A stretch of 64,000 nucleotides of DNA from Heptranchias perlo (lineage: Eukaryota): the NCBI RefSeq assembly GCF_035084215.1, contig NC_090343.1:30070001-30134000 (forward strand), in the 5' to 3' direction. Below are positions 703 to 49,449 of this stretch, in pieces. The translations under genes and the position numbers were made by a program. Below the pieces are notes generated by a model. That model was not told the DNA's origin. It did not search any database and saw nothing but the letters and a program-made list of their open reading frames with translations. Positions within the stretch are counted from its first letter, which is position 1. Every line of letters begins with the position of its first letter.

Positions 703-3240
703 ATAAGAACATAAGAAGATAAAAAATAGAAGCAGGAGTAGGTCATATGGCCCCTCGAGCCTATTCCCCCATTCTACCTCAATTCCACTTTCCCGCCCTA
801 ACCCCATATCCCTTGATTTCCTTAGTGTCCAAATATCCATCGATCTCAGTCTTGAATATACTCAACAACTGAGCATTCCCATCCCTCTGGGGTAGAGAAT
901 TCCAAAGATTCACAACCCTCTGAGTGAAGAAATTTTTCCTCATCTCAGTCCTAAATGGCCAACCTCTTATCTTGAGACTACGACACCTAGTTCTAGACTC
1001 TCCAGCCCGGGGAAACAACCTCTCAGCATCTACGCTGTCAAGCCCTCTAAAAGAATTTTATACGTTTCAATGAGATCACCTCTCATTCTTCTAAACTGCA
1101 GAGAATATAGGCCCATTTTACTCAATCTCTCCTCATAGGACAACCCTCTTATCCCAGGAATCAATCAAGTGAACCTTCCTTGCACCCCCTCTAATGCAAG
1201 TATATCCTTCCTTAGGTAAGGAGATCAAAACTGTACACTGTACTCCAGGTGTGGTCTCACCAGAGCCCTATATAATTGCAGCAAAACCTCCCTACTCTTA
1301 TACTCCAACCCCCTTGCAATAAAGGCTAACATACCATTTGCCTTCCTAATTGCTTGCTGTACCTGCATGTTAACTTTCTGTGATTCATGTGCAAGGACAC
1401 CTAAATCCCTCTGACTACCAACATTTCTTAGTCTCTCACCTTTTAAAAAATATCCTGCTTTTCTATTCTTCCTACCAAAGTGGATAATTTTACATTTCCC
1501 CACATTATACTCTATCTGCTACCTTCTCACCCACTACACTAAACCTGTCCATATCCCTTTGCAGTCTCTTTGCGTCCTCCTCACAACTTATTTTCCCACC
1601 TAGCTTTGTATAGTCAGCAAACTTGGATACATTACATTCGGTCCCCTCATTTAAGTCGTTAAGGTATATTGTAAACAGCTGAGGCCCAAGCACTGATCCT
1701 TGCGGCACCCCACTAGTTACACCTGCCAACCCAAAAATGACCTGTTTGTTTCTACTCTCTATTTTCTGTCTGTTAACCAATCTTCAATCCATGATAATAT
1801 ATTACTCCCAATCCCATGAGCCCTAATCTTGTGCAATAACCTTTTGTGTGGCACCTTATCGAATGCCTCCTGAAAATCCAAATATACTACATCCATTGGT
1901 TCCCCCTTACCTACCCTGCTAGTTACACCCTCAAAAATTTTTAATAGATTTGTCAAACATTATTTCCTTTTCATAAAACAGTGTTGACTCTGCCTAATCA
2001 TATTATGATTTTCTAAGTGCCCTGTTACTACGTCCTTAATAGCATTTTCCCTACTTTTGACGTCAGGCTAACTGGCCGATAGTTGCCCATTTTCTCTATC
2101 CCTCCTTACTTGAATAGTGGGGTTACATTTGCTACCTTCCAATCCACGGGGATTGTTCTAGAATCTAGAGAATTCTGGAAAATCAAACCCAATGCATCCA
2201 CTATCTCTGCAGCCATCTCTTTTAAAACCCTATGATGTAAACCATCAGGTCCAGGGGATTTGTTGGCTTTTAGTCCCATTAATTTCTCCAGTACTTTTTC
2301 TTTACTAATCTTAATTACTTTAAGTTCTTCACTGTCATTAGAACTTTGGTTCCCCATTATTTCCAGTATGTTTTTTGTGTCTTCTACTGTGAAGACAGAT
2401 ACAAAATATTTGTTTAACATCTCTGTCATTTCCTTATTCCCCGTTATAATTTCTCCTGTCTCTGCCTCTAAGGGACCCACATTTACTTTTGCTAATCTCT
2501 TCCTTTTTATATACTTGTAGAAGCTCTTACAATCTGATTTTATATTTCTTGCTGATTTATTCTCATGTTCAATTTTCTCTCTCTATCAATTTCTTGGTCA
2601 TCCTTTGCTGATTTCTAAAACCCTCCTAATCCTCAGGCTTACTATTCTTTTTGGCAACACTGTAAGCCTCTCCTTTTAATCGAATACTATCCTTAACTTC
2701 TCTGGTTATCCACAGTTGGATCATTTTTCCTGTGGACTTTTTATTCCTCAAGGAATGTATATTTGTTGAGAATATTCTTATCTACCATCATATCTTTTAA
2801 TCTAATTTCCCAATCCCTCAGCCAACTTGTCCCTCACACCTACGTAATTGGCTTTGTTTAAATTTAAGAGTCTAGTTTCGGAATTAACTACATCACTCTC
2901 AAATTCAATATGAAATTCTATCATATTATGATCACTCCTCCCCAAAGGATCTTTAGCTATAAGATTACTAATTAACCCTAACTCATTACACAATACTAGA
3001 TCTAAAATAGCCTGTTCCCTATTTTGACCCTGGACGTATTGTTCTAAAAAACTGTCTCGAATGCATTCCATGAACTTGTCCTCCAAACTATTTTTGCCAA
3101 TTTGATTTGCCCAGTCGATATGAAGATTAAAGTCCTCCACGATTATTACCCTTGTTACATGCTCCTCTAATTTCTGATAAACTACTCTGACCAGTGTTTT
3201 CTGCCCCTTGTTATTTCTAGCTCCACCTATACTGATTCTA
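703..3240 (-). mobile_element. CR1 (HER1-type) LINE, decayed APE-RT ORF2 fragment with 3' tail
   Basis: Collinear minus-strand ORF pieces: DFNLHIDW/ILDLVL/SDHN (APE), [64 protein letters not shown]. (CATAAGAA)n-type tail at ~703-720. Confidence 0.93.
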
Positions 3241-3304
3241 CATCCTGATTTTCTGAGCTAAGATCCTTTCTCACCACTGCCCTTATCTCATCTTTTTTTA
3301 TCAG

Positions 3305-3412
3305 GGCTACCCCACCAAACCCTCCACCCTCCCTCCCCACGCCCCTTCCTCGCACTCCTGCATCCCTCCCTCCCCTCCCATCCCTCCCCTCCTTTCCCCT
3401 CCCATCCCCTCT
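3305..3412 (-). repeat. C/T-rich low-complexity tract (G-rich on minus strand, G-quadruplex potential)
   Basis: Many CCC runs separated by 1-4 nt. Confidence 0.5.
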
Positions 3413-4759
3413 GATATGTGTGGAGGCATCATGTAATAATGTCACTCTGGTATGCATTGGAATTTGCAATGAGCCACTTACATTGAGGATTATCAGTCCA
3501 ATAGTGAATGTCTAGAACAGCAGCCACAGAAGAATGGGATGCTACTTTCCCAAGACCTGCAGAGGGACCAACAGAGTGTTGAGTAGCAATGCTCCAAGCC
3601 ACCCTGGAGGAGGATATTAGTTTCATTGATTTGATTGATTAGTGGATTGATTAGAGAGTCAATCTACCCCCTAGCTGGGATCAGTCTATTTGTACAATAT
3701 TATACACCAAAAGATGATCATTTTCAGAAAAGAGTTTGATATGGTAGAGGATTTCAAAATGGTAGAGAAATGTTCAACATAATCTTTGAGAAAAGGGAAC
3801 TATTGGATTTTCCAAATAGACAGCTAGTAATTCAAATAGCCCAGTTTACAGTTGCGGGAATACTACAGAATAAATAGCCCATTAAGCTATGCATCTAGAT
3901 AAAGTAGGGTTCTGCACATAGCAAAAGGGCTTGTTATACTACAATGTCTGAAAACTGTGCGATGTTTTACTATTGACCTTCCTCCACTTTATAGGTGCGA
4001 CCTTTAGGAGAAGCAGAAAGTGGAGAGGATCGAATTCTCTCTTTCTTCACTCATTACAAATTAGTACTTGTATCAATATAGGGTTCAGTAGCGCATAGCC
4101 TTTCTAACAATAAGTACGTATCATTGCTAATATCGCCAAATGTTACAGTGCATGAAAGAGAATTGTTTATTCAACTCAAGCTGCCTTGCTTGATGCTATA
4201 CAAAGTGAAGACTGCTGAAAAGGCTTAATTATAAGTATTATTAAGTTTGGTTCCAGCATGACAAATTATCTAATTGATTGATAATCTATTTCTCCAAGTG
4301 GTTTAGCATTATCCAAAAGTGATAACAAGCAAAGAATCTGAGTCTTTGTTCAGAGTGGAGTTGGTGAGGACCTGTGTTACACCAAAATATTAGCTGGTCC
4401 TTGGGTATTGGATCAGCCACCTACCACCCTATTTTTGATGCCCTAATGCTGCTTTTTAATCTGTTACTTTGTCTGAAATGTCCTTATGTCGACTACAGTC
4501 ATGAAATATATTTAGGCCAACCTTTCCTTACTTTGATGATCGATACATGATTCCCTTTCCCGTTTAGTCCTTATTTTGTTGTGGCTTAAGTTACTCATGT
4601 ATTTTGTTGAGGGAGCTGTTGTTAAATTCAGTTTCAGTAACAACTACGGTGATTACATACTGAGAAGTTGAGTAATGTTGCTTCAGCAAAAGGGATGATT
4701 CACCAAGAGATATAATTCACAGTGTCTTGAATGAGATAACCACAAGTTAACTACAAAAA

Positions 4760-7712
4760 AACTAGTATCAGTAATGGTAGCCATGAAACTACCGGATTGT
4801 CGTAAAAACCAATCTGGTTCACTAATGTCCTTTAGGGAAGGAAACCTGCCGTCCTTACCTGGTCTGGCCTATATGTGACTCCAGACCCTTAGCAATGTGG
4901 TTGATTCTTAATTGCACTCTGAACTGGCCGAGCAAGCCATTCAGTTGTAAAATCTCGCTAAAAAAAGTCATCATAAGAATAAAACCGGACGGACCTCCCG
5001 GCATCGGACCACTGAGCATCGGACACGACAAAGGCAAAACAAGCCCAGTCAACCCTGCAAAGTCCTCCTCACGAACATCTGGGGACTTGTGCCAAAACTG
5101 GGAGAGCTGTCCCACAGACTAGTCAAACAACAGCCTGACACAGCCATACTCACAGAATCATACCATTCAGCCAACATCCCAGAATCTTCCATCACCATCC
5201 CTGGGTATGTCCTGTCCCACCGGTAGCAAGGGCACAGAATGTACTCTGGGTGGGGGACGTCAACGTCCATCACCAAGAGTGGCTCGGTAGCACTACTACT
5301 GACCGAGCTGGCCGAGTCCTGAAGGACATAGCTGCCAGACTGGGTCTGCGGCAGGTGGTGAGCGAACCAACATGAGGGAAAAGCCTACTTGACCTCGTCC
5401 TCACCAATCTACCTGTCGCAAATGCATCTGTCCATGACAGTATTGGTAGGAGTGACCCACTGCACAGTCCTCGTGGAGACGAAGTCCCATCTTCGCACTG
5501 AGGATACCATCCAACGTGTTGTGTGGCACTATCACCGTGCTAAATGGGATAGATTCAGAACAGATCTAGCAGCTCAAAATTGGACATCCATGAGGCACTA
5601 TGGGCCATCAGCAGCAGCAGAATTGTATTCCAGCACAATCTGTAACCTCATGGCCTGGCATATTCCTCACTCTACCATTACCAACAAGCCAGGGGATCAA
5701 CCCTGGTTCAATGAGGAGTGTAGAAGAGCATGCCAGGAGCAGCACCAGGCGTACCTAAAAGTGAGGTGCCAACCTGGTGAAGCTACAACTCCAGACTACA
5801 CGCATGTTAAACAGCGGAAGCAACATGCTATAGACAAAGCTAAGCGATTCCATAACCAACGGATCAGATCAAAGCTCTGCAGTCCTGCCACATCCAGTCG
5901 TGAATGGTGGTGGACAATTAAACAACTAACGGGAGGAGGAGGCTCTGTAAACATCCCCATCCTCAATGATGGCGGAGTCCAGCACGTGAGTGCAAACGAC
6001 AAGACTGAAGCATTTGCAACCATCTTCAGCCAGAAGTGCCGAGTGAACGATTCATCTCGGCCTCCTCCCGACATCCCCACCATCACAGAAGCCAGTCTTG
6101 AGCCAATTCGATTCACTCCACATCATATCAAGAAACGGCTGAGTGCACTGGATACAGCAAAGGCTATGGGCCCCGACAACATCCCGGCTGTAGTGCTGAA
6201 GACTTGTGCTCCAGAACTAGCCGCGCCTCGAGCCAAACTGTTCCAATACAGCTACAACACTGGCATCTACCCGACAATGTGGAAATTTGCCCATGTATGT
6301 CCTGTCCACAAAAAGCAGGACAAATCCAATCCGGCCAATTACCATCCCATCAGTCTACTCTCAATCATCAGTGTAAAGTGATGGAAGGTGTCGTCGATGG
6401 TGCTATCAAGCGGCACTTACTCATCAATAACCTGCTCACCGATGCTCAGTTTGGGTTCCGCCAGGACCACTCGGCTCCAGACCTCATTACAGCCTTGGTC
6501 CAAACATGGACTAAAGAGCTGAATTCCAGAGGTGAGGTGAGAGTGACTGCCCTTGACATCAAGACAACATTTGAGTGTGGCACCAAGGAGCCCTAGTAAA
6601 ATTGAAGTCAATGGGAATCAGGGGGAAAACTCTCCAGTGGCTGGAGTCATACCTAGCACAAAGGAAGATGGTAGTGGTTGTTGGAGGCAAAACATCTCAG
6701 CCCCAGGACATTGCTGCAGGAGTTCCTCAGGGCAGTGTCCTAGGCCCAACCATCTTCAGCTGCTTCATCAATGACCTTCCCTCCATCATAAGGTCAGAAA
6801 TGGGGATGTTCGCTGATGATTGCACAGTGTTCAGTTCCATTCGCAACCCTTCAGATAATGAAGCAGTTCCTACCCGCATGCAGCAAGACCTGGACAACAT
6901 CCAGGCTTGGGCTGATAAGTGGCAAGTAACATTCGCGCCGGACAAGTGCCAAGGAATAACCATCTCCAAGAAGAGAGAGTCTAAACACCTCTTCTTGACA
7001 TTTAACGACATTACCATCGCGAATTCCCCACAATCAACATCCTGGGGGTCACCATTGACCAGAAACTTAATTGGCCCAGCTGCATAAATACTGTGGCTGC
7101 AAGAGCAGGTCAGAGGCTGGGTATTCTGCGGCGAGTGACTCACCTCCTGACTCCCCAAAGCCTTTCCACCATCTACAAGGCACAAGTCAGGAGTGTGATG
7201 GAATACTCTCCACTTGCCTGGATGAGTGCAGCTCCAACAACACTCAAGAAGCTCGACACCATCCACGACAAAGCAGCCCGCTTGATGGCACCCCATCCAC
7301 CACCCTAAACATTCACTCCCTTCACCACCAGCGCACCGTGGCTGCAGTGTGTACCATCCACAGGATGCACTGCAGCAACTCACCAAGGCTTGTTCGACAG
7401 CACCTCCCAAACCCGCGACCTCTACCACCCAGAAGGACAAGGGCGGCAGGCACATGGGAACAACACCACCTGCACATTCCCCTCCAAGTCACACACCATC
7501 CCGACTTGGAAATATATCGCCGTTCCTTCATCGTCGCTGGTTCAAAATCCTGGAACTCCCTTCCTAACAGCACTGTGGGAGAACCTGCACCACACGGACT
7601 GCAGCGATTCAAGAAGGCGGCTCACCACCACCTTCTCAAGGGCAATTAGGGATGGGCAATAAATGCTGACCTCGCCAGCGATGCCCACATCCCATGAACG
7701 AGTAAAAAAAAA
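4760..7712 (+). mobile_element. CR1-group LINE of the tRNA-headed family, near full length. Head is 5'-truncated, APE has a ~200-bp internal deletion, and there are a few frameshifts.
   Basis: APE start LLTNIWGLVPKLGEL (~5065), [48 protein letters not shown]. Stop at 7647-7649, short 3' stem-loop (GGGATGGGCA...TGCCCACATCCC) and A tail at 7704-7712. Confidence 0.93.
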
Positions 7713-16337: not shown

Positions 16338-18504
16338 GGGCCAAATTTTGCTGTAAAAATCACAGTGAAGCTAATGGCGCACACCATTATTTATGCGCAA
16401 ATGGTACAACAACTTCAGGCGAGGAGCAGATACGTGGTTAAATGCCAATATCCACAAGTTGTTCTCCGAGTTGCACCACGCTGCTGTTAGCTTCACAAAA
16501 AATGTTTGCCTCACCACTGACATGCATTGAATGGCGTGACGTTGCTGTATTTGTGCGATAAATACGAACTAAACTCGCCGCAGAAAATTAGGTGAGACAA
16601 AAAATGCTTTTTCTGCTAGGCACCCCACTGTTTCTGCTTTTACTGTACACCATGGAAGGCCGATGCAGGGAACAACAACAAGGAGCCAGGCACCATGCCT
16701 GGAGGCTCAACAATAGGAACAATTACCCAACCCCGAGAGTCTACAGGGAGAGGCTGTCTTTCGAGATGATGTTTGAAGGGCCTTTGTGTGAGGAGGCTAC
16801 GTTTTAGTAAGGAGGCAATCGGCTGCCTCTGTGAAATGTTAAAAGAGGAACTTCAGCCATGTTCTAACTTCCGCAGAGCCTTGTCAGTGGCAATGAAGGT
16901 AACTACAGCCCTCAAATTTTAGGCATGCACATCATTTCAGTCAGATACCAGTGACATGTGCAACATCACCCAAAGTACTGCGAGAGTGTGCATTCACTAG
17001 TTCACGGATGCCATATTCCGCAGAGCTTCTGACTTCATCACCTGTGAAATGTCACCAATGAGGCAAAGGGAGAGGTCTGTCGCATTCCACAGGATTGTGG
17101 GCTTCCCCAAAGTGCTGGGGACTGTCAACAGAACCCATATGGCATTGAAGGCACCCAGTGATGCACCTGTCACATACAGCAACAGGAAAGAATACCATTT
17201 GTTAAATGTGATGATCTTTTGCGATGTCCAACTGCGGATCATGAATATAAGTGCAGATCATCAGGCAAGTGCTCACGATGCCTTCGTCCTTCAACACTCA
17301 AACTTACATGATGCCTTCACCAGAGCATGGCAAGGATCTGGATGGATCTTAGATGACAAGGCCTACCTGCTAAAGCCGTGGCTGATGACACCCTACCGCA
17401 GGACCAATAGTGCAGCACAGGAAAGGTACAACCGTGCACACATGCATGTGCCAAGTAATGGGGAGGACAATAGGGGTGCTGAAATCACGCTTCCGGTGCC
17501 TGGACAGTTCAGGAGGTACTTTGCAGTACTTGCCTATCAAAGTGTCAAGGATTGTGGTGGTATGCTGCGCATTGCACAACTTTGCCTTGTGGGAAGGACT
17601 GACTCACAGTCAGGCAAACGAGATGCTGGTGGAAATGGACGATAACCAGAATCCCAACCCGGATGTCAGTGGAGCCATGGTTTGTGCCCCGCACACCCGC
17701 ACTGCCCACCCCCCCCTCCCCCCCAAGGATGTCACAGCTGCAGTGGGCAGGGCGGCTAGAGAGCAGCTGGTGCATTTGGACAATGATGAAAGTGGCAAAA
17801 TGCCTCCCTCCCCAGGAAAGCACACAAAAGGACGGACAAGATTGAAAATCAAACAGTGAACTTTTACTGCAGCAGTTTAAACAACAATTGAGGTAGTTAG
17901 TGCAAAACTTTAAATAAAAATTGAGGTACTTAGTCATTTTCTACTTTGGAAACAGTTGTAACATAAACATGGTTGAGATTATTACAATTTTGAGTTCCAA
18001 ATGACTTCTGACAATGATTTAAGGACAGCAGCAACAACAACAATTATAATAGAAATAATCAAGAGAAATATTAATATCATAAAAACCACAACAATTGAAC
18101 AAGAACAAACCGCAACAAATTTAGCATACTTGCGCCTTCACAGGTGTTACTTTGGACTGCTTTTTATAAACTGTTCATGCATTGCCTTTTTATAAAATGT
18201 TTTAAAAAGATTTTTAACAATTAAAGTAGCTTTTTAGAGTTAGTTTTAGGTAACTTCAAGACACAGTTCATTACTCACCTCTCTGTAACACTCCTAACTG
18301 TATCTTCACTATTAAGAGTGCCATGTGGTCAGACCTCTTTCATTGTCAACTCGAGACGTCGTTCCGATGCCCTGTTGCCAGCGCCGCACTGCTTCCATCT
18401 CACACTTCCAGCAACTTGCCATGCAAAAAGTCATTGCGATTAAATGTGCAAGTCTAACTAACGGCTGGCGCCATTAAATGCCCTCCTACAGCAAACTCTG
18501 GCCC
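16338..18504 (+). mobile_element. PIF/Harbinger DNA transposon with both TIRs
   Basis: TIRs GGGCCAAATTTTGCTGTA and GGGCCAGAGTTTGCTGTA (rc). TSD AAT at 16335-16337 and 18505-18507. Contains a transposase pseudogene. Confidence 0.92.
16652..17640 (+). pseudogene. Harbinger DDE transposase (HARBI1-like), frameshifted
   Basis: GFPKVLGTVNRTHMAL, YSNRKEYHLLNV, SAHDAFVL, GWILDDKAYLLKPWLMTP, RTIGVLKSRFRCLD, CCALHN. Stops and frameshifts present. Confidence 0.9.
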
Positions 18505-28068: not shown

Positions 28069-30228
28069 ATTGGGTTTAAAAGTAATACCCAGGTATGACA
28101 ACCAAGCATGTTTGAAATGGTGTGCCAAACTGTAACACCAGAAATAAGTGACAAACAGGAAGTGCATGGTAGATGTAAGACTTTATAATGAGAGAGAAAG
28201 AGAAACTTCAGCAATGTAATTCAAACCTGTAATATTTCTCTGGGCTCAAATGATAAATTTTACATCATCATCTAAATCCCTTTTTGGATTACAATTTACA
28301 ACATGCTTCCACCTTCTGTTCTGCACACATGACCCATGGATTAGGAAAATTCAAACCTCCCTTGTATGTAATGGAATGTGCGCTATACATTGTCACTTGT
28401 GCTTCAGCTTCCTTGCTGAGCTTTTCAGTGTAAGGTTCGATGACTCTATGGGGGAATTGTGATAGTATGTATGCAGTGACATACTGTAATGCCTACAGTG
28501 GTATCAATATTAAAATTTACAATCTTACCATTTATCTTCAGATCTACTTACAAGAATTTATCTGTCGTCATCACATATAATTGACTCTGAAAGAATGACT
28601 CCTGAACCTGTGATTTATCACTACTGATCACTGCTTTAAAAGCTCAATGTGACAGATTATTTCAAAATGCTCCAATTAATTACATCTCTTGCACTTTTGA
28701 TTACATGCTGGAATGTTTATCCTTTTGACTCTGTCTACGATTGCACCGTGCCAAAGCACCGTTTTTGGCTTGGTGGAGCTCTCTCTCCATTTCTTTTCCT
28801 CCATGCACCTCAACCATGGATTTTGCACAACCTCATCTAGTTCTCCAGTTGGCATCTGACCTGCTAACTGGCATTTTATCACCTCCAGAGCACTATGCAA
28901 TTTTGACAGCTGTATCAACAGTCAGGTCTGAACTCATTTATAGCTTCTGTGTTAGGTCTTTGTCAGCAATGTCAATCATAATTCTGTCATGAATCTGCTT
29001 ATTTTGCTTGACCAAAATTCATTTTTCAGTTGGTTCACGGGGAAATTTCAAATGATGCTACAGTTTCTCCTGCTTTCTGACAATGCTGGTAGAAGAGAAA
29101 TCTTATCATAAATTAAGGAGGCTTTGGAACAAGATTTTCATGGTCTAGAACCATGACAAAGCTTCACAAAGAAGACAGTGATGTATAGATTAGTACTTCT
29201 TTGCATGCTGACTCTAATAATGGCTCAGCTGAAGTTAAAACATTATGGTGAGTTAAATGTAGATATGCTGAGACATTCTGTTCTCCACAGTACAGTTTTA
29301 GACTGTACTACTATCACAGAGCTCTATGAACTTCTGGCAGTAAATGTCTCTCTCTTCCTCTATCTCTCTTACCAGAAGCTTCTCTCTTCACACAGACATT
29401 TCATTAGTAATCTCTAATTCTCTTAAAATGAAATTATTAGTCAGCACTTATTAAAATAAATGAAGATTAAAAATGGCAGCTGTACAACACGCTTCACTGT
29501 AAGGCTCCTAGTGTGAATTTCAAAATACAGTGTCATCCTGCCATTCAGGTAGATGTTTCACTTTCTCTACAAGTTTGGCTCTTGACCCAAACTCTCGACC
29601 TTTCCCATAGATCGTTTGCAGAGGACTTTTTTTTTAAAATTGCCTAAATACCATGTTTTGTTCTTCAAGCATTGTCCAGCACTCCGACCATGAACAGTGG
29701 CTCCTTCACTGGCTAGATGATGAGGTGCCAATATCAGCAAAAGAGGAAAAACCCTGCCACAAACAACAGACAAGAGGACCATGATACTTTGAAACTTTTT
29801 CTGGGTGTGATCGCACCAGATCAACCCTGAACCACCTCTGACTGTATTCAGGATTTTCTTTTCTTAACCACCAGTAGATCCTGGACTCCTTTGACCACTA
29901 TCTTGCCTTGTTCTGTGTTCACCATTCTCGATGAAATATATCACCAGACTTGCAGTCATGCACAAGTCAGCTGGTTTGTACATGCATCACAAGACCACTT
30001 CTCTATATCCATTGCCCCAGACCTGAGACCCCACTCCCCCAGTTTACTGTCCTTTGAACTGAACTGTCCCTGCCTCCTTCTCCCATTCCTCTTCTTGGTC
30101 TTTCGAAGGTGATATAAACAGACAGTTAGTAAAGTTTAAGAAAAAAAATCAACTGATTCATTTGTCTTACCAAAATAAAATATTTCATTAGTTTAATTTT
30201 ATCTTAACAGTCTCTTTGAAATCGAAAG

Positions 30229-30678
30229 GAAGAACTTGCATTTCTAAAGCATCTTTCATGATCTAAGGATATCCCAAAGCGATTCACAGCCAAGTGTGAA
30301 GTGTAGACTGTTGTAATGCAGGGAAATGCGGCAGTCAATTTGTGCTCGGCAAGGTCCCACAAACAGCAATGAGATAAAATACAAGTTAATCTGTTTTTTT
30401 TAGTGATGTTGGTTGAGGGATGACTATTGCACAGGACACCAGGAGAAATTCCCTGCTCTTTGAGAGGTGCCACGGGATCTTTTACGACACCACAGACAGC
30501 AGATAGGGCCTTGTTTAAGGTCTCATCCAAAAGACAAAACTTCCAACACTGCAGTACTCCCTCAGAACTGCACTGCAGTGTTAGCTCCTGGTACATGCCC
30601 AATCTCTGGAGTGTGGCTTGAATCCACACCATTCTAATTCAGAAGTGAGATTGCTACTGCTGAGCCAAGGCTGACACC
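30229..30678 (-). mobile_element. tRNA-derived SINE (SacSINE1/DeuSINE-like)
   Basis: Reverse-complement homolog of 37388-37856 with L2-type tail. Family name recalled from the consensus, not searched. Confidence 0.8.
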
Positions 30679-30844
30679 ATGAATATTAGCTATCTTTGTC
30701 TGTCTTGTTGAGAACAGGAAAGCTCTTGTCACTAAATTAGGTATATATATATATATATATGAAAAAAAATTACAATTCTGACGTGTGAGAAGATAAGACC
30801 AACTTTGTTTTTGGACTTCCATCGGTCATTGTCATTGTCTTCTC

Positions 30845-31560: not shown

Positions 31561-32025
31561 AGGAAAAAAACTAAAGAGAACAATATTTCACATTCCTCTT
31601 TCCGAAGTTAAAAATTTAATCAATACATTAAGCACAATATATATAAAGTGCACTTTGTTAAAAATTATCTTTACAAAGAACACATTATCTGCAAAGAATT
31701 GTGATAGTCTTGTGTTATATCTATATAATTGCACATTGTCTGAAATAATTATATTATGGCTCCATTACCCAACCTTTGATTTGACTTTCTTTTTTTCACT
31801 GACTAAATATATGCCAATTTTCATACTACCAGAGCTCTGGTACATTTTCCCAATGCGAGTAAATCATTTGCTCATTTATAATGTTGAAAACTACACTTTG
31901 AATGCAAAGGAAAACCATCTGTCACAATTAACTATCGAGATAATGCTGTTTGTCCTACTGATACCACCTTGTTCTTGTTGAGGCTTGATTCACCATGGTG
32001 ATGTTCCTTTTTCTATATGTCTCAA

Positions 32026-32475
32026 GGTGTCAGCCTTGACTCAGTTGTCGCACTCTTGCCTCTGAGTCAGAAAGTTTTTGGTTCAGGCCCCACTCCAGGT
32101 ATTTGAGTACATAATCTTGGCTGTAATGAGGGCGTCCTGTATTATTACTGGTGCTGTCTTTTGGATGAGACATTAAACTGAGGCCTTATCCGCCTTCTTA
32201 GGAGATGTAAAAGATCCTATGCCAGTATTTGAAGAGGAGCAGGGGAGCTGTCCTGGCCAATAGTTATCCATTAACTAACATCACCAAAATAGATTATCTC
32301 ATCATTTATTTCATTGCTATTTAAGGGACCTGGCTGTGCGCAAATTGGCTGTCATGTTTTCCTATATTACAACAGTGACTACACTTCAAAAGTAATTTGT
32401 TGACTGTGAAGTGCTTTAAGATAGCCCGAGGTCATGAAAGGCATTATATAAATTCAAGTTCGTCGGTCTTTCTTT
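32026..32475 (+). mobile_element. SacSINE1/DeuSINE-like SINE
   Basis: A/B-box head (TGACTCAGTTG, GGTTCAGGCCC), body homologous to 37388-37856. Confidence 0.8.
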
Positions 32476-34860: not shown

Positions 34861-36642
34861 GCAAAACTGCCAGTTAAAAATTATAATTTAAAAACTTACT
34901 GCAGTTTGGGTCAAACTCCTTCTAATCACTGAGCTGCCATTTCACTCTCTCAACTTTTGCCCCCACAAATTTAAGAATCTGGTTTGAAGATTTCCTCTGT
35001 TCTCCACTTGTAGCAAAATTGTGAGTGTGTTCTTTGTACATGAGTTTATAATCTTGCTACAAAAATAAAGGAAATCTTCCCTGAGGATTCAAAAATGTTA
35101 TGGTAATACTAGAAGCATGCTTGCCTATCTGCTAGACCAGACTGCCAGCTCCTTTGTAAGCAGGAATTTCTGGTGTGCAAAATAGTAATGATCCATTCTT
35201 TTTAAGTTGTTGTGGCTTTGGTGGTTTCTTGTAGGGGGGATGATTCTTTGAGGCCTTATAAGGAGGAGTCTTACCATTAGTAATCCTTTCAATAGGCAAA
35301 GGTTATCATTTATTTTCTCTCTATTGATTCATTTTTTAAAGAAAACCCTTTTTTATGTTGAATAAGTGCTAATGAGATCATTGGGAATACTGGGACAAAG
35401 AAGTTACAGCCTGACAGTAAGACTTTGGACTCATGCAAGTCAAGCCCCTGGTGATATAATTAGCATTCATTGTTTAAACGGAACGATTCAAAGATCTATA
35501 GGTATAAACTAGAAAAAACATGTTAAAATTAATCACAAACCTTTATAATGGTTTGATATTTAGAGACCCTAATTATGAGATTTTTTTTCACTGGATTTTC
35601 TTTATCACAATTTGATAATATGACAGAGTTTATGTCCAAAACTAGATATAAGAAACTGGTTGAAAGAATCTGAAAAAAAATCTACTTTTTTTCTTTACAA
35701 TTATTACAGTGCAAATGTCTGAAAATAATTAAAATATGCAATAGTTTTACATATTTTTGTATGAAGCATAGATTTATTATTCTCCTGTGCTGTTGGATTT
35801 TTTTATGCTTTGTGATGTCTTTCACTTTATTGTGCTCCTGGGCTCCCCTGTCCAGCCTACCGAGCAGTGTACAAAATGGGATTCATAAAAAAAAGTAATA
35901 AAACAGATAAATAACGTTACAAAAAAAAATTCAGCTCCAGCTATTTTCCATTTATATTTCCTCAATGAATCGTATAAAGTGGGTCCATGTTAGTATCGTC
36001 ATTGCAGGGAAGACTGCAACTCTATATCTAATGGTTCCTGCTTGTACTATCACAGTCCATCTCGAGCTGTTACAATGCCACATGAAGCATAGCAAAAAAA
36101 CTGATGCATTGAACAGTTCATTAAGTACAAATTTTCATTTCATATCACCTTCTTGATTTGCACAGACTCTTTCTAGGGGACTTACTCTGAATATCTTCTT
36201 TAGAATAATTCCCTTTCCAGCTAGCCGTTTCACTGTGACTCGTTAATGCATCATTTACTCAGCCATGTAGAATAGTTATTATGGGAGATTGCTTATACTT
36301 TCACCTCAATTTACTTTTTTGTTAAAAATTGCTAAATGGCTCTCAATCCTTATACTTTTAAATTATGTAGACCATATGGCATTCCTGCTCTTCCTCAAAC
36401 AGCAGCAATGCAGAACTAATTGAGTTATTTGTACTAACTACCGTGGCAGACATGAATAATCTGCTCTCCGTAAAATATCACAGATGAAACATTTCCTGCT
36501 GTGTATGGCAAGGGTGAGCCGTTTCTTAACTTCATCTGTTTGTATACAATGTTAGTCTTCACTAAGGGTTTGTCTACCTCAAATGGGTAAGAATCGAAAA
36601 AGAAATGACATATGGCATGGGACTGTATTTTCACTGTCCAAA

Positions 36643-37205
36643 GAACTTGCATATTTATATAGCATTTTTCACATCCTCAGGATATCCCAAATATAGCCAA
36701 TGAATTACTTTTGAAGAGAAGTCACTGTTGTTTTGTAAGCAAAGGTGGAAGCCAATTTGTACACAACGAGGTTCCACAAAGAGCAATGAGATGATCTGTT
36801 GTTGGTTGAGGGATAAATACTGCCCAGAATACTTGACAAGCTCCCCTGCTCTTCTTCAAATAGTGCTATGGAATCTATTATGAGAGGGCAGATGGGGGGG
36901 GGGATGGGTCATTTTTAATTTATCACTGGAGCGTAAAACCGGCATTGCGAAGTCGGCACCCATATTAGAAATTGCCCATTTTCTATTGTGCCCTTTCTAT
37001 AATGGGTGCCTGACCCACAATACCAGTTTTACACCCTGGGTCTCAGTTTAACATCTCATCCAAAAGACAGCACCTTGGACAATCTAACACTCTCTCTGTA
37101 CTACACCGAATTGTTAGCTTAGATTATGTACTCAAGTCCTGGTGTGGGCTTGAACCCACAACCTTCTGTCTCAGATGTGAAACTGCTACCAACTCAGCAA
37201 GGTTT
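36643..37205 (-). mobile_element. SacSINE1-like SINE interrupted by a palindromic MITE (~36905-37040)
   Basis: Tail AACTTGCATATTTATATAGC, head rc at ~37140-37205. Insert has arms GTAAAACCGGCATTGCG / CACAATACCAGTTTTAC. Confidence 0.75.
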
Positions 37206-37299
37206 AACCCTTCTAACACCATGAATCTCATTCCAAGTTTGAATGAAATGCTTTGAAGAAGTCATAGACCTATAAAATGAATTGCATTGTTATTTTACT

Positions 37300-37387
37300 T
37301 TTCCTACTTTACAACAGTGACTACACTTCAAAAGTACTTCTTCATTGGCTGTAAAGCACTTTAGGACATCCTGTGGTTGTGAAAGGT
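37300..37387 (+). mobile_element. 3' fragment of a SacSINE1-like SINE
   Basis: ACAACAGTGACTACACTTCAAAA...TTGGCTGTAAAGC matches 37750-37825. Confidence 0.75.
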
Positions 37388-37856
37388 GCCAGCCATGGCT
37401 CAGTGGTAGCACTCTCCCCTCTGAGTCAGAAGGTTGTGGGTTGAAGTCCCATTCCGGAGACTTGAGCACAAAATCTAGGCTGACGCTTAGCTACAGTACT
37501 GAAGGAGTTCTGCAATGTCGGAGGGGCCGTCCTTCGAATGAGACTTTAAACCGAGGTCCCGTTGCCCTCTCAGGTGGATGTGAAAGATCCCATGGCACTA
37601 TTTTGAAGAAGAGCAGGGGAGTTCTCTCCCGTGTCCTGGCCAATATTTATCCCTCAACCAACGGCACTAGTACTGAATATCTGGTCATTTTCTCATTGCT
37701 GTTTGTGGGACTTTGCTGTGTGCAAATTGGCTGCCGCATTTCCTACATTACAACAGTGACTACACTTCAAAAAAACTATTTAATTGGCTGTAAAGCGCTT
37801 TGGGATGTCCTGAGGTCGTGAAAGGCACTATATAAATGCAAGTCTTTTCTTCTTTT
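37388..37856 (+). mobile_element. Full-length SacSINE1/DeuSINE-like SINE
   Basis: A box TGGCTCAGTGG, B box GGTTGAAGTCCC, conserved body, L2-type 3' end TATATAAATGCAAGTCTTT. Confidence 0.88.
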
Positions 37857-44522: not shown

Positions 44523-44737
44523 AAGTGAAATGCAGTATCAAGAGAGGCGATCATAAGTGGAATGAACATTGCCCATAAAACAGAAGCATGTTAGTTTTAA
44601 CTATTTACATTTAAGAACTGAATTATGTTTTTAACAACTGATATTGCATTTCTTTATTGAAAGGGCAAGTCTATTCTTCTTTATTATTAGAAAGCTGCTG
44701 ACAGGAGGCACAAAAAATTTATGGACAAGGGTGATAT

Positions 44738-45210
44738 TCACAGAATCCTACCTTTTCAGCCAATGTCCCAGACTCCTCCATCACCATCCCTGGGTATGTC
44801 CTGTCCCACCGGCAGGACAGACCCACAACATTGACTCCGGACCCCATGAAGTCTCATGGCATCAGCTCCAACACTGGTAAGGAAAATTCCTGCCGATTAC
44901 CACCTACCGCCCTCCCTCACCTGATGAATCAGTCATCCTCCATGTTGAGCACCACTTGAAGGAGGCACCGAAGATAGCAAGGACACAGAATGTACTCTGG
45001 ATGGGGGACTTCAATGTCCATCACCAAGAGTGGCTCAGTAGCACCACTACTGACCGAGCTGACCGAGTCATGAAGGACATAGCTGCCAGACTGGGCCTGC
45101 GGCAGGGGTGAGAGAACCAACACGAGGTGAAAACCTAGTTGACCTCGTCCTCACCAATCGACCTGTCGGAGATGCATCTGTCCATGACAGTATTGGTAGG
45201 AGTGACCACC
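44738..45210 (+). mobile_element. APE-domain fragment of the tRNA-headed LINE family
   Basis: Homologous to 5150-5460 and to the reverse complement of ~46675-47195. Confidence 0.85.
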
Positions 45211-47714
45211 GCCTTGGCGAGTTGCTGCAGTGCATCCTGTGGATGGTACACACTGCAGCCACAGTGCGCCGGTGGTGAAGGGAGTGAATGTTTAGGGTGG
45301 TGGATGGGGTGCCAATCAAGCGGGCTGCTTTATCTTGGATGGTGTCGAGCTTCTTGAGTGTTGTTGGAGCTGCACTCATCCAAGCAAGTGGAGAGTATTC
45401 CATCACACTCCTGACTTGTGCCTTGTAGATGATGGAAAGGCTTTGGGGAGTCAGGACGTGAGTCGCTCGCCGCAGAATACCCAGCCTCTGACCTGCTCTC
45501 GTAGCCACTGTATTTATATGGCTGGTCCAGTTAAGTTTCAATTTTACTAGGGCTCCTTGGTGCTACACTCGGTCAAATGCTGCCTTGATGTCAAGGGCAG
45601 TCACCTCACCTCTGGAATTCAGCTCTTTTGTCCATGTTTGGACCAAGGCTGTAATGAGGTCTGGAGCCGAGTGGTCCTGGCGGAACCCAAACTGAGCATC
45701 GGTGAGCAGGTTATTGGTGAGTAAGTGCCGCTTGATAGCACTGTCGATGACACCTTCCATCACTTTGCTGATGATTGAGAGTAGACTGATGGGGCGGTAA
45801 TTGGCCGGATTGGATTTGTCCTGCTTTTTGTGGACAGGATATACCTGGGCAATTTTCCACATTGTTGGGTAGATGCCAGTGTTGTAGCTGTACTGGAACA
45901 GCTTGGCTAGAGGCGCAGCTAGTTCTGGAGCATAAGTCTTCAGCACCACAGCTGGGATGTTGTCGGGGCCCATAGCCTTTGCTGTATCCAGTGCACTCAG
46001 CCGTTTCTTGATATCACGTGGAGTGAATCGAATTGGCTGAAGACTGGCTTCCGTGATGGTGGGGATATCGGGAGGAGGCCGAGATGGATCATCCACTCGA
46101 CACTTCTGGCTGAAGATGGTTGCAAACGCTTCAGCCTTGTCTTTTGCACTCACGTGCTGGACTCCGCCATCATTGAGGATGGGGATGTTTACAGAGCCTC
46201 CTCCTCCCGTTAGTTGTTTAATTGTCCACCACCATTCACGACTGGATGTGGCAGGACTGCAGAGCTTTGATCTGATCCGTTGGTTGTGGAATCGCTTAGC
46301 TCTGTCTATAGCATGTTGCTTCCGCAGTTTAGCATGCATGTAGTCCTGAGTTGTAGCTTCACCAGGTTGGCACCTCATTTTTAGGTACGCCTGGTGCTGC
46401 TCCTGGCATGCTCTTCTACACTCATTGAACCAGGGTTGATCCCCTGGCTTGTTGGTAATGGTAGAGTGAGGAATATGCCGGGCCATGAGGTTACAGATTG
46501 TGCTGGAATACAATTCTGCTACTGCTGATGGCCCACAGCGCCTCATGGATGCCCAGTTTTGAGCTGCTAGATCTGTTCTGAATCTATCCCATTTAGCACG
46601 GTGGTAGTGACACACAACACGTTGGGTGGTGTCCTCAGTGCGAAGACGGGACTTCATCTCCACGAGGACTGTGCGGTGGTCACTCCTACCAATACTGTCA
46701 TGGACAGATGCATTTGCGACAGGTAGATTGGTGAGGATGAGGTCAAGTAAGTTTTTCCCCTCGTGTTGGTTCGCTCACCACCTGCCGCAGGCCCAGTCTG
46801 GCAGCTATGTCCTTCAGGACTCGGCCAGCTCAGTCAGTAGTGGTGCTACCGAGCCACTCTTGGTGATGGACATTGAAGTCCCCCACTCAGAGTACATTTT
46901 GTGTCCTTGCTACCCTCACTGCTTCCTCCAAGTGGTGCTCAACATGGAGGAGGACTGATTCATCAGCTGAGGGAGGGCGGTAGGTGGTAATCAGCAGGAG
47001 CTTTCCTTGCCCATGTTTGACCTGATGCCATGAGATTTCATGGGGTCCAGAGTTCAATGTTGAGGACTCCCAGGGCCACTCCCTCCTGACTGTACCGCCA
47101 CCTTTGGTGAGTCTGTCCTGCCGGTGGGACAGGACATACCCAGGGATGGTAATGGAAGAGTCTGGGACGTTGGCTGAAAGGTATGATTCTGTGAGAATGG
47201 CTATGTCAGGCTGTTGCTTGACTAGTCTGTGGGACAGCTCTCCCAATTTTGGCACAAATCCCCAGATGTTAGTAAGGAGGACCTTGCAGGGTCGACTGGG
47301 CTTGGTTTGCCGTTGTTGTGTCTGGTGCCTAGTGGTCCGTCCGATTTTATTCTTATTATGACTTTTCGTAGCGAGATTTTACAACTGAGTGGCTTGCTAG
47401 GCCATTTCAGAGGGCAATTAAGAATCAACCACATTGCTGTGGGTCTGGAGTCACATTTAGGCCAGACCGGGTAAGGACGGCAGGTTTCTTTCCCTGAAGG
47501 ACATTAGTGAACCAGATGGGTTTTTACGACAAGTTTCATGGCCGTCATTACTGATACTAGTATTTTAATTCCAGATGTTTATTTAATTAATTAAATTAAA
47601 TTAATTAATTGAATTTAAATTCGCCAGCTGCCGTGGCGGGATTTGAACTCATGACTCTGGATTTTAGTTTAGGCCTTTGGATTACTAGTCCAGTAACATA
47701 ACCACTATGCTACC
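45211..47714 (-). mobile_element. tRNA-headed CR1-group LINE, 5'-complete. RT core is deleted at ~45540 and the 3' end is missing.
   Basis: Head with A box (47712-47702) and B box (47650-47638), ~430-nt leader, APE (PDIAILTESYL, GDFN, SDH), 366-aa ORF 45563-46663 ending ALDIKAAFDRV, then a jump to the LNWTSHI region. Confidence 0.93.
47638..47714 (-). promoter_or_regulatory. tRNA-derived internal Pol III (type 2) promoter at the LINE 5' end
   Basis: TAGCATAGTGG fits the A box (TRGCNNAGTGG). GAGTTCAAATCCC fits the B box. About 51 nt apart. Confidence 0.75.
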
Positions 47715-47727
47715 TACACTATGCTAA

Positions 47728-49449
47728 CTACACAAAAACAGCAGGCTGTGAAAACAGCACCGCAGGAAAAGGAACGTTTCATTTTTTTGGCATGAAGAAG
47801 TTTTGGAAATTTGGGGGGTAGAAGTGGAGGCAGTTTTGGGACTTTTCTCTCTCTTGCTTCCTCGCCTACTCTCGTCTTCACTTATCCTCACCTTCACAAC
47901 AAGAACCGAGCACTCCGCCTGGGGTGGAGAGAAGAAACCACCACAAGAAGCAGAGCTTCGCTCTTCAACTTTATGGACGAACCTCAAACTGAGACTTGAA
48001 TACTGCACAGCAGTACGGAACCAGGCGACATGTTTTCTACAAGGGGAAGCAGCAAGAAAGTGAAGGGACAATCTGGGTGAGCATTGTCCAAGGAGTCATA
48101 CCTAGCACAAAGGAAGATGGTAGTGGTTGTTGGAGGCCAATCATCTCAGCCTCTGGGCATTGCTGCAGGAGTTCCTCAGGGCAGTGTCCTAGGCCCAACC
48201 ATCTTCAGCTGCTTCATCAATGATCTTCCCTCCATCATAAGGTCAGAAATGGGGATGTTCGCTGATGACTGCACAGTGTTCAGTTCCATTCGCAACCCCT
48301 CAAATAATGAAGCAGTCCGAGCCCGCATGCAGCAAGACCTGGACAACATCCAGGCTTGGGCTCATAAGTGGCAAGTAACATTCGCGCCAGATAAGTGCCA
48401 GGCAATGACCATCTCCAACAAGAGTCGAACCACCTCCCCTTGACATTCAACGGCATTACCATCGCCGAATCCCCCACCATCAACATTCTGGGGGTCACCA
48501 TTGACCAGAAACTTAACTGGACCAGCCATATAAATACTGTGGCTACGAGAGCAGGTCAGAGGCTGGGTATTCTGCGGTGAGTGACTCACCTCCTGACTCC
48601 CCAAAGCCTTTCCACCATCTACAAGGCACAAGTCAGGAGTGTGATGGAATACTCTCCACTTGCTTGGATCAGTGCAGCTCCAACAACACTCAAGAAGCTC
48701 GACACCATCCAAGATAAAGCAGCCCGCTTGATTGGCACCCCATCCACCACCCTAAACATTCACTCCCTTCACCACTGGTGCACTGTGGCTGCAGTGTGTA
48801 CCATCCACAGGATGCACTGCAGCAACTCGCCAAGGCTTCTTCGACAGCACCTCCCAAACCCGCAACCTCTACCACCTAGAAGGACAAGAGCAGCAGACAC
48901 ATGGGAACAACAACACCTGCACGTTCCCCTCCAAGTCACACACAATACCGACTTGGAAATATATCGCCATTCCTTCATCGTTGCTGGTTCAAAATCCTGG
49001 AACTCCCTTCCTAACAGCACAGTGGGAGAACCGTCACCACACACACTGCAGCGGTTCAAGAAGGCGGCTCACCACCACCTTGTCAAGGGCAATTAAGGAT
49101 GGGCAATAAATGCCGGCCTCACCAGCGACGCCCACATCCCATGAACGAATTTTAAAAAAAAGTCCACATCCTTAAGACCACCGGTATTGTGTGAAGGGGT
49201 GTTGTGTGTTCCCAACGAAGTCATAGGGGTTTAGTGGGAAGGTTCTGCTTCGTGACGTAGTGTACTGTATTGTCTTACGCCACCATTTTTTTGATATATT
49301 GAAGACGGCGGTGTGTGTTAACCTTAATAAACACTGTACGATTGAGTCCGAAAAAGCTTGTCCGTGAGTCAATTCTGTTCACCGTAATTCCCGTCGTCTA
49401 GAACTGTGTAAGGGGGGGTGATTCGAACCACCCAGCCAAACCACTTACA
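47728..49449 (+). mobile_element. LTR-like sequence (47728-48090 plus 49167-49449) split by a LINE insertion
   Basis: GTCCA duplicated around the LINE. CpG-rich relative to the flanks, AATAAA at 49326-49331, ends ...CTTACA at 49449, no PBS after it. Confidence 0.45.
48091..49161 (+). mobile_element. 5'-truncated copy of the tRNA-headed LINE (RT core to 3' end)
   Basis: [26 protein letters not shown] tail. TSD GTCCA at 48086-48090 and 49162-49166. Confidence 0.93.

What the first reader, a model, noticed from the sequence alone, without database searches (positions are those of the whole stretch)
45211..47714. Candidate RNA polymerase III-transcribed, protein-coding LINE (tRNA head fused to APE-RT, no T4 terminators)
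Seen: the 5' end of this CR1-group LINE is a tRNA-like head (A box TAGCATAGTGG 47712-47702, B box GAGTTCAAATCCC 47650-47638). A ~430-nt leader follows and leads straight into the endonuclease domain. The independent copy at 4760-7712 has the same leader-ORF junction, so the fusion belongs to the family. Reading by eye, I found no TTTT on the sense strand of 4760-7712, of 45211-47714 (even in the AT-only stretch 47578-47620) or inside 48091-49149. The only T4 runs are at the 3' end of copy 3 (49150-49153) and in the older fragment (44753-44756, where the sister copy has TTT). The ordinary CR1s here have many sense-strand T4 runs. Known: Pol III uses internal A/B boxes and terminates at T4 or longer; LINEs are normally Pol II transcripts. 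Inference: an autonomous retrotransposon made by Pol III and selected against terminators, effectively a SINE that encodes its own RT. My rough estimate is that about 3-5 T4 runs would be expected by chance per copy. The copies are closely related, so they are not independent tests. I cannot confirm novelty without a search.
Basis: partly seen in the sequence, partly recalled or inferred. Interest (0 to 1): 0.92.

Follow-up and report, generated by a model that had tools for sequence, protein, structure and literature searches.

The report
Shark LINE with tRNA-type promoter
This is a dead copy of an abundant shark and ray jumping gene that encodes its own reverse transcriptase, starts with a tRNA-type promoter and avoids the T-runs that stop RNA polymerase III, so it may be a protein-coding retrotransposon copied by a polymerase thought to make only short non-coding RNAs.

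Summary
The locus is a broken copy of a young, abundant 3.33-kb LINE, elasmobranch CR1-Zenon: one APE-RT ORF, no ORF1, poly(A) tail.

Full-length copies start 8 nt before a tRNA-type A box. Of 30 copies picked on ORF sequence alone, 19 reach the head and 11 are cut at scattered points. All 7 published Zenon consensuses from 5 sharks and rays begin with it, unremarked; hagfish and coelacanth Zenons do not.

Sense-strand T4 occurs once in 118,530 nt of 36 copies. None of 127 homologous LINE ORFs is T4-free, and a same-genome CR1 of similar T content is not depleted. In the youngest copies, substitutions creating T4 number 0 against 5.9 expected, while those creating T3 or antisense T4 are not depleted. 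The ORF has no AUG before codon 250. SINE-sized internal-deletion derivatives exist.

Best reading: RNA polymerase III makes the transposing RNA (about 0.75), probably also the translated RNA (0.55). No transcription data test this. The family is published; I found no report of its tRNA head or terminator avoidance.

The parts
47629..47714 (-). tRNA-derived head of the Zenon copy (element nt 7 to about 92; the first 6 nt are missing here), with a tandemly duplicated anticodon-arm-like segment
   Evidence: the older single-arm version scores above the Rfam tRNA cut-off
47702..47712 (-). A box (element nt 9-19)
   Evidence: matches the A-box pattern in 33 of 36 long copies
47638..47650 (-). B box (core at element nt 72-81)
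   Evidence: matches the B-box pattern in 35 of 36 long copies
47379..47628 (-). Leader (SINE-body-like), 28% T yet without T4; folds back on the head in the predicted structure
   Evidence: fold z -3.2
47410..47420 (-). 11-nt segment complementary to the end of the ORF in full-length copies (possible 5'-3' helix; the partner is lost in this copy)
   Evidence: E 0.25 on its own, untested by covariation
47397..47405 (-). In-frame AUG-GCC-UAG mini-ORF 27 nt upstream of the long ORF
   Evidence: also visible in the published consensuses
45537..47378 (-). 5' part of the single APE-RT ORF (basic N-terminal stretch, endonuclease, linker, start of RT); broken by stops and frameshifts in this copy
45211..45539 (-). 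C-terminal ORF segment (element nt 2683-3011) after an internal deletion; the 3' tail is absent
44734..45212 (+). Older antisense fragment of the same family (element nt 548-1081, 82% identity)
48092..49161 (+). 5'-truncated sister copy (element nt 2263-3333) with poly(A) tail
4756..7712 (+). Sister copy truncated at element nt about 155 (no head), with an internal deletion of nt 629-840 and a poly(A) tail

Best explanation
The locus is a dead copy of the elasmobranch CR1-Zenon LINE. An ancestor of the family in sharks and rays acquired a tRNA-derived SINE-type head. SHOWN: the head is the fixed 5' end; the element has one 973-codon APE-RT frame with no ORF1 and no 5' AUG; it ends in poly(A); its sense strand is purged of T4 and thinned of T3; internally deleted SINE-sized derivatives keep both ends. 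INFERRED: TFIIIC binds the A and B boxes, and Pol III starts about 8 nt upstream of the A box. It transcribes all 3.3 kb because no T4 stops it, and ends at the first T-run in the flank, as for Alu. The uncapped RNA is translated inefficiently by non-canonical initiation, either near-cognate or by re-initiation or read-through from the in-frame AUG-GCC-UAG. The protein binds the 3' tail and inserts RNA by target-primed reverse transcription, often in trans. That would explain why young copies have near-neutral protein changes but no new T4. In effect this is an autonomous, protein-coding SINE.
For: Head: 39 of 39 head-selected loci continue into the leader, 37 of them into the ORF; 19 of 30 ORF-selected loci reach nt 1-19; 7 of 7 elasmobranch Zenon consensuses start with an A/B-box head, 0 of 3 hagfish and coelacanth ones do (by eye, first 400 nt). 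T-runs: 1 T4 in 118,530 nt; ORF T3 6 vs 13.0 after codon permutation (P 0.0025), Phe TTT:TTC 4:15; Phe 2.0%, below all 118 homologs; 0 of 127 homologous ORFs are T4-free and their lowest T3 observed/expected is 0.77 vs 0.35-0.46 here; control CR1 with 21.9% T has T3 22 vs 22.2 and 2.2-4.4 T4 per kb in 30 of 30 copies. Threshold: pieces at least 97% identical show T4-creating substitutions 0 vs 5.9 (P 0.003), T3-creating 45 vs 40.7, antisense-T4-creating 39 vs 25.4; the deficit fades in older pieces. TTTT terminates Pol III and TTT barely does (PMC8466645 passages). Pol III transcripts retrotranspose without ORF1p (PMC2666806 abstract).
Against: No transcription, cap or Pol III occupancy data; the run search listed no holder on record as RNA. 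T4 absence in the ORF alone is borderline (P 0.05-0.06). TVTTT-creating substitutions are not avoided (13 vs 14.4), though TVTTT terminates 20-50% in mammalian cells. The control CR1 also shows a mild deficit of T4-creating changes (27 vs 36.1, P 0.07), so part of the signal may be mutational context. An AATAAA lies about 45 nt before the tail, compatible with Pol II 3' processing. Lack of ORF1 and poly(A) are general Zenon traits, not head-linked. Low Pol III processivity is the stated reason that autonomous elements are assumed to use Pol II (PMC10886601). A/B boxes alone are only an indication (PMC3531059). No start codon or IRES has been identified.
Confidence: 0.55

Rival explanations
1. 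Split system. Pol III makes the RNA that is reverse-transcribed, but the protein comes from separate capped Pol II transcripts (read-through or splicing from host genes into rare intact copies) and acts in trans. The 3.3-kb Pol III RNA then behaves as a giant SINE.
For: Explains all the T-run evidence. Private variants are near-neutral for the protein (192 synonymous, 427 missense, 26 nonsense vs 173/444/28 expected) yet never create T4, so templates need not be coding. Avoids having to translate uncapped RNA. The family fills about 5% of sampled DNA, so host-driven transcripts must be common.
Against: Variants shared by 3 or more copies are enriched for synonymous changes (50 S vs 41 N), so source lineages are under protein selection together with the head. 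An ORF and a head kept together across five species imply some cis advantage. No splice-in or AUG donor was identified.
Confidence: 0.2
2. Ordinary Pol II LINE that captured a SINE as its 5' UTR. The head is passive or serves as a Pol II promoter, and T-run avoidance reflects base composition, mutation bias or another RNA-level constraint.
For: LINEs are defined as Pol II transcripts. AATAAA sits before the tail. The element is T-poor overall (20%). TVTTT gain is neutral. tRNA-like sequence occurs in RTE-1_DAn (PMC5786205).
Against: Depletion persists after composition and codon controls and is strand-specific: 21 A4 runs vs 0 T4 in the majority sequence. It acts at 4 Ts, not 3, and is absent from a CR1 of similar T content. 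The leader holds two AATAAA and ten upstream-region ATGs, and the ORF has no AUG, which is poor design for a scanned capped mRNA. The box variants across species stay within the A/B consensus while the spacer changes (by eye).
Confidence: 0.17
3. The head acts as an RNA element. A tRNA mimic is cut by RNase P out of host read-through transcripts and so fixes the 5' end, as HDV-like ribozymes do for R2, RTE and Ingi.
For: The 5' end falls at about tRNA position 0-1, where RNase P cuts (A box at nt 9; tRNA numbering from recall). Self-processing 5' ends are known in other single-ORF LINE clades (PMC5786205).
Against: It does not explain T4 avoidance. The young head has a duplicated anticodon arm and mismatched T-stem, scores below the tRNA cut-off, and is predicted to pair with the leader instead of forming a cloverleaf, while the promoter boxes stay intact.
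Confidence: 0.08

Closest known systems
Elasmobranch CR1-Zenon LINEs (Stuart et al. 2026, PMC13343379: CarCar, HypSab, RhiTyp, ScyCan, SquAca Zenon; also 'CR1-Zenon like' in whale shark, 10.1101/443036)
   Same: About 3.3 kb, no ORF1, APE-RT, poly(A). The first 400 nt of the published consensuses match this element by eye, head included. Nearest named homologs are crustacean, as that paper reports for elasmobranch Zenon.
   Different: Nothing in the family itself. The paper's main text has 0 hits for tRNA, polymerase III and promoter, and its supplement has 0 for tRNA, so the head, terminator avoidance and missing AUG are not described there.
Other Zenons (hagfish, coelacanth, lepidopteran Zenon and its internally deleted derivative Persaeus)
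   Same: Single ORF, poly(A), and generation of bipartite deletion derivatives.
   Different: No tRNA head. Hagfish and coelacanth 5' ends carry T4 or longer runs. Persaeus lacks tRNA homology and a Pol III promoter (PMC6740152).
tRNA-derived SINEs (SINE2), including those with bipartite LINE bodies (Bov-tA, AfroSINE, SINE2_Gav; PMC5786205) and the shark SINEs HE1 and SacSINE1
   Same: tRNA head with A and B boxes, body, LINE tail and poly(A). The 480-nt derivatives here are structurally such SINEs.
   Different: The full element is 3.3 kb and encodes its own APE-RT; 'SINEs cannot encode a protein'. HE1 and SacSINE1 are reported with other partner LINEs; no sequence comparison with them was possible.
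RTE-1_DAn and relatives (Repbase)
   Same: A LINE carrying a tRNA-like sequence (one sentence in PMC5786205).
   Different: Different clade. The position of the sequence, its promoter function and T-run content are not described in what I read, and I could not examine the sequence.
R2 retrotransposons (recalled) and TRIMp3/Cassandra (PMC10886601)
   Same: R2 is a single-ORF LINE made by a non-Pol II polymerase and translated without a cap or standard AUG (recall). TRIMp3 are retroelements with small-RNA-derived Pol III promoters.
   Different: R2 is co-transcribed by Pol I from the rDNA promoter and has no promoter of its own. TRIMp3 are short, non-coding LTR elements.

Membership tests
CR1-Zenon (elasmobranch lineage) | Single ORF with APE endonuclease and RT | tested here: met
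   973-codon frame with PF03372, PF14529 and PF00078 above cut-off
CR1-Zenon (elasmobranch lineage) | No ORF1 | tested here: met
   349-nt leader with no frame over 100 aa upstream of the ORF
CR1-Zenon (elasmobranch lineage) | Poly(A) tail | tested here: met
   A-rich tails in the long copies, except two or three with damaged 3' ends
CR1-Zenon (elasmobranch lineage) | Sequence identity with published elasmobranch Zenon consensuses | tested here: met
   By-eye match over the first 400 nt and equal length; not aligned by program, and the cells are cut at 400 characters
CR1-Zenon (elasmobranch lineage) | RT phylogeny within the Zenon clade | not tested
   The tree has only unnamed homologs; no reference Zenon proteins were available
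tRNA-derived SINE (SINE2) | Head homologous to tRNA | tested here: met
   Older head L260 scores 31 bits vs cut-off 29; young duplicated heads score 18.7-18.8 bits, below cut-off; source isotype not determined
tRNA-derived SINE (SINE2) | Internal A and B boxes | tested here: met
   33 and 35 of 36 copies (patterns recalled)
tRNA-derived SINE (SINE2) | Short (under 1 kb) and non-autonomous | tested here: not met
   3.33 kb with its own APE-RT; met only by the deletion derivatives
tRNA-derived SINE (SINE2) | Transcribed by RNA polymerase III | not testable with these tools
   Only indirect sequence signatures
Canonical LINE | Pol II transcript from an internal promoter | not testable with these tools
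   No cap, CAGE or inhibitor data
Canonical LINE | First ORF opened by an AUG | tested here: not met
   First in-frame Met is codon 250, past the endonuclease domain

The most novel reading that the evidence does not exclude
Elasmobranch Zenon is a self-sufficient retrotransposon whose 3.3-kb coding RNA is made by RNA polymerase III from a tRNA-type internal promoter and translated without a cap or AUG. It would be an autonomous SINE, kept across sharks and rays, that has reshaped its codons and amino-acid use to avoid terminators and that repeatedly spawns true SINEs by internal deletion.
Probability: 0.55. Interest if true: 0.92.

Novelty: new variant of a known kind. Interest (0 to 1): 0.82.

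Why it matters
The LINE/SINE divide rests on Pol II plus coding versus Pol III plus non-coding. If true, this element sits across the divide. It would be a natural multi-kilobase protein-coding Pol III transcript, a testable case of cap- and AUG-independent translation in a vertebrate, and a direct route for SINE birth (deletion from a headed LINE, rather than fusion of a tRNA to a LINE tail). It is not a rarity: the family covered 10.6 kb of 200 kb of evenly picked genomic DNA. A compact ORF1-less, Pol III-driven retrotransposon would also be of interest for RNA-templated gene insertion.

Tried and rejected
ARAGORN finds no tRNA in the window. The dinucleotide-shuffle test on single copies was not significant and was replaced by family-level tests. 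A first metagenome scan with the single protein found no relative. No tRNA-headed relative was seen among 160 distant loci: a B-box-like match upstream in 3 of 127 ORFs, many with truncated 5' ends, so this does not show absence. One search used wrong coordinates and is discarded. A search for a distinct older sister family returned mostly the same family. The source tRNA isotype was not found: the 7 tRNA loci checked were Cys or Thr and were not aligned to the head. Run search: no RNA holder listed; the four runs laid are contigs and show only presence along all 30 bins in four coded organisms, not starts, strand or expression. Target-site duplications: one clear case (L022); 8 other matches of 7 nt or in repeats among 39 loci; not pursued. 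The idea that the head is a one-off SINE insertion at this locus is rejected. The idea of endonuclease self-target avoidance is rejected because the antisense strand is rich in T4. I first took the family for Daphne from recalled motifs; one search corrected that. Two papers sought by DOI were not held. No structure or complex prediction was run, as it would not bear on the question.

Full report
OBSERVATION. The A box (47712-47702) and B box (47650-47638) are at the stated places on the minus strand. Sense-strand T4 is absent from 45211-47712 and 4756-7706; the 48-kb copy and the 44.7-kb fragment have one each. For single copies this is P about 0.02 against base shuffles but P 0.11-0.16 against dinucleotide shuffles, so the window alone could not decide. 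The window copy maps to element nt 7-2226 and 2683-3011 and is broken; the copy at 4756 lacks the head.

THE FAMILY. The host genome is 3.25 Gb and evidently a shark; the closest named protein hit is annotated in Heptranchias perlo. A search with the head and leader scored 40 of 2888 candidates. I fetched the 39 that are not the window. All share the same 5' end within a few bases; 37 run into the ORF and 2 jump to the 3' tail. The 36 long ones are 0.7-2.5% from their majority sequence of 3334 nt; 3 of 36 hold the unbroken 973-codon frame, which carries endonuclease and RT domains. To avoid head-biased sampling I searched with an ORF-internal stretch: of the 30 loci returned, 19 reach element nt 1-19 and 11 stop at scattered points from 149 to 787, with flanks unalike by eye (one locus is the query's own and two are the same insertion). 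In 20 evenly picked 10-kb stretches, 16 pieces in 12 stretches cover 10,640 nt; this is a rough 5%. Contigs of four runs from four coded organisms cover all 30 bins of the element.

IDENTITY. Stuart et al. 2026 (PMC13343379; abstract, passages, sections 15 and 23, supplement search) describe Zenon elements from five elasmobranchs: over 84% identical, no ORF1, poly(A), and not deposited in repeat databases. Their supplementary consensuses, visible for the first 400 nt, match this element. All 7 elasmobranch entries begin with the tRNA-type head and show no TTTT in that stretch by eye; the stingray B box lacks one base. The 3 hagfish and coelacanth entries have no such head and carry T-runs. The paper has no hit for tRNA, polymerase III or promoter in the main text or for tRNA in the supplement. 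So the family is known, the head predates or crossed the shark-ray split, and it was not remarked on there.

THE HEAD. The young head scores below the Rfam tRNA cut-off because the anticodon arm is duplicated; an older single-arm head scores 31 bits against a cut-off of 29. A and B boxes match recalled consensus patterns in 33 and 35 of 36 copies, at nt 9-19 and 72-81. The predicted fold pairs the head with the leader instead of forming a cloverleaf, which favours a DNA promoter over an RNA mimic.

TERMINATOR AVOIDANCE. (a) The 36 copies hold one T4 in 118,530 nt, at a tail; the majority sequence has 0 T4 and 7 T3 against 21 A4 and 53 A3. (b) In a natural intact ORF (L026), T3 is 6 vs 13.0 under within-amino-acid codon permutation (P 0.0025) and 18.3 with neutral third positions; T4 is 0 vs 2.3-2.5 (P 0.05-0.06); Phe TTT:TTC is 4:15. 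(c) Phe is 2.0%, lower than in all 118 homologs of 700 aa or more (of 120 listed). (d) Of 160 homologous loci, 127 gave an ORF of 600 aa or more; none is T4-free and the lowest T3 observed/expected is 0.77, against 0.35-0.46 here; most of these are T-richer, which limits the control. (e) A CR1 from the same genome with 21.9% T shows T3 22 vs 22.2, TTT:TTC 15:7 and 2.2-4.4 T4 per kb in 30 of 30 copies. (f) In 63 aligned pieces at least 97% identical to the majority (136 kb), substitutions that would create T4 number 0 vs 5.9 expected (P 0.003); those creating T3 are 45 vs 40.7 and those creating antisense T4 are 39 vs 25.4. At 94-97% identity it is 3 vs 7.6, and below 94% it is 7 vs 7.7. This is what one expects if templates had to be read through by an enzyme that stops at four Ts and later decay is neutral. 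TTTT is an effective Pol III terminator and TTT is not (PMC8466645 passages). Against: TVTTT-creating changes are neutral (13 vs 14.4), although the majority holds only one TVTTT vs 4.3 expected; and the control CR1 has a mild deficit of T4 gains (27 vs 36.1, P 0.07). Tests (a), (b) and (f) use overlapping copies and are not independent.

TRANSLATION. The frame opens at nt 350 after a stop, and its first Met is codon 250. The two best homologs begin with Met and a similar basic stretch before the endonuclease. An in-frame AUG-GCC-UAG lies 27 nt upstream in 31 of 51 matched sites, with sense codons in place of the UAG in 16; a second stop precedes the frame in the young subfamily. Initiation must be non-canonical whichever polymerase is used; this fits an uncapped RNA but does not prove it. 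Private variants are near-neutral for the protein while variants shared by 3 or more copies favour synonymous change, suggesting much mobilisation in trans. Pol III-made RNAs retrotranspose with ORF2p alone (PMC2666806, abstract only).

SINE DERIVATIVES. Of 12 loci retrieved with a leader-tail junction, 9 join element nt 357 to about 3208 and 3 have other junctions. Older headed short forms at 74-82% identity exist, and leader-tail joints appear in other organisms' contigs. At least one old form (L260) keeps LINE-leader sequence and a long LINE 3' part, so deletion from a headed LINE has recurred. Whether the very first head came from a pre-existing SINE is not resolved.

PRIOR ART. Ten full-text searches returned no paper whose title or abstract start describes a Pol III-transcribed autonomous LINE. 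[quoted passage not shown] Kojima 2024 (PMC10886601, passages) and SINEBase (PMC3531059, passages) state that non-LTR retrotransposons use Pol II. A review passage allows an 'atypical pol II (or pol III) promoter' in non-LTR elements (PMC3894237); an old claim of Pol III dependence for human L1 is recalled, not read. Passages only were seen for PMC7245038, PMC3747384, PMC5381603, PMC6740152, PMC11481361, PMC5499810, 10.1101/788562 and 10.1101/443036. Repbase, Dfam, most subscription journals and bioRxiv supplements could not be searched, so a prior note on the head may exist. Two earlier AI notes from other genomes report the same architecture; they are not independent support.

VERDICT. The feature is real. 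It belongs to a known family, and the property appears undescribed and is well supported by sequence. Probability that Pol III makes the transposing RNA is about 0.75; that the same RNA is the mRNA, about 0.55. Interest 0.82.

Noticed in passing
family-wide, e.g. window 47399 (T of CCTAG); element nt 162, 329, 412, 522, 955, 1185, 2214: The T of sense-strand CTAG is hypermutable to G, C and A: T>G 8.3% vs 0.14% background, while the A of the same palindrome shows A>C 2.7%. It recurs across the tree (74 steps for 89 alleles at CTA sites) and is absent in the control CR1, which has few such sites. It may reflect RT misreading a modified U in the element RNA.
   Followed up: partly
window 47410-47420 and 49085-49100 (sister copy 3' end); L211:1376-1705: An 11-nt leader segment is complementary to the ORF stop region and forms a helix in the predicted fold of the SINE derivative. 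Possible 5'-3' pairing of the full-length RNA; not tested by covariation.
   Followed up: partly
window 47397-47405: Conserved in-frame AUG-GCC-UAG-CAA upstream of the long ORF; a candidate for re-initiation or read-through.
   Followed up: partly
P0085: A public gene model named aldo-keto reductase carries over 200 residues of this LINE's ORF; probably an annotation chimera.
   Followed up: no
window 47715-47728; L034; L214: Partial duplications of the head's first 15-25 nt directly upstream of some full-length copies, suggesting template jumps at the end of reverse transcription.
   Followed up: no
L011, L015, L020, L044 flanks; window 44734-49161: Copies often sit inside or beside other copies of the same family, and most lack a clear target-site duplication.
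   Followed up: no
window 17001-17859 and 57090-57554: ORF remnants that resemble Harbinger/PIF-type transposase nucleases (by recalled motifs).
   Followed up: no
window 30226-30682, 32022-32464, 36640-37851: A second repeat family of about 460 nt, several copies about 70% alike; resembles a Deu-type shark SINE by recall only.
   Followed up: no
L130-L209: Eukaryotic LINE ORFs inside prokaryotic MAG assemblies, many from symbiont bins, pointing to host contamination.
   Followed up: no
G000:C23: Large dispersed array of near-identical tRNA genes, 6 of 7 checked loci overall being tRNA-Cys, many spaced about 2.35 kb.
   Followed up: no
L149: A distant homolog (34% identity) that is also T-poor, with 2.2% Phe and only one T4; its 5' end is missing, so a head could not be checked.
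   Followed up: no
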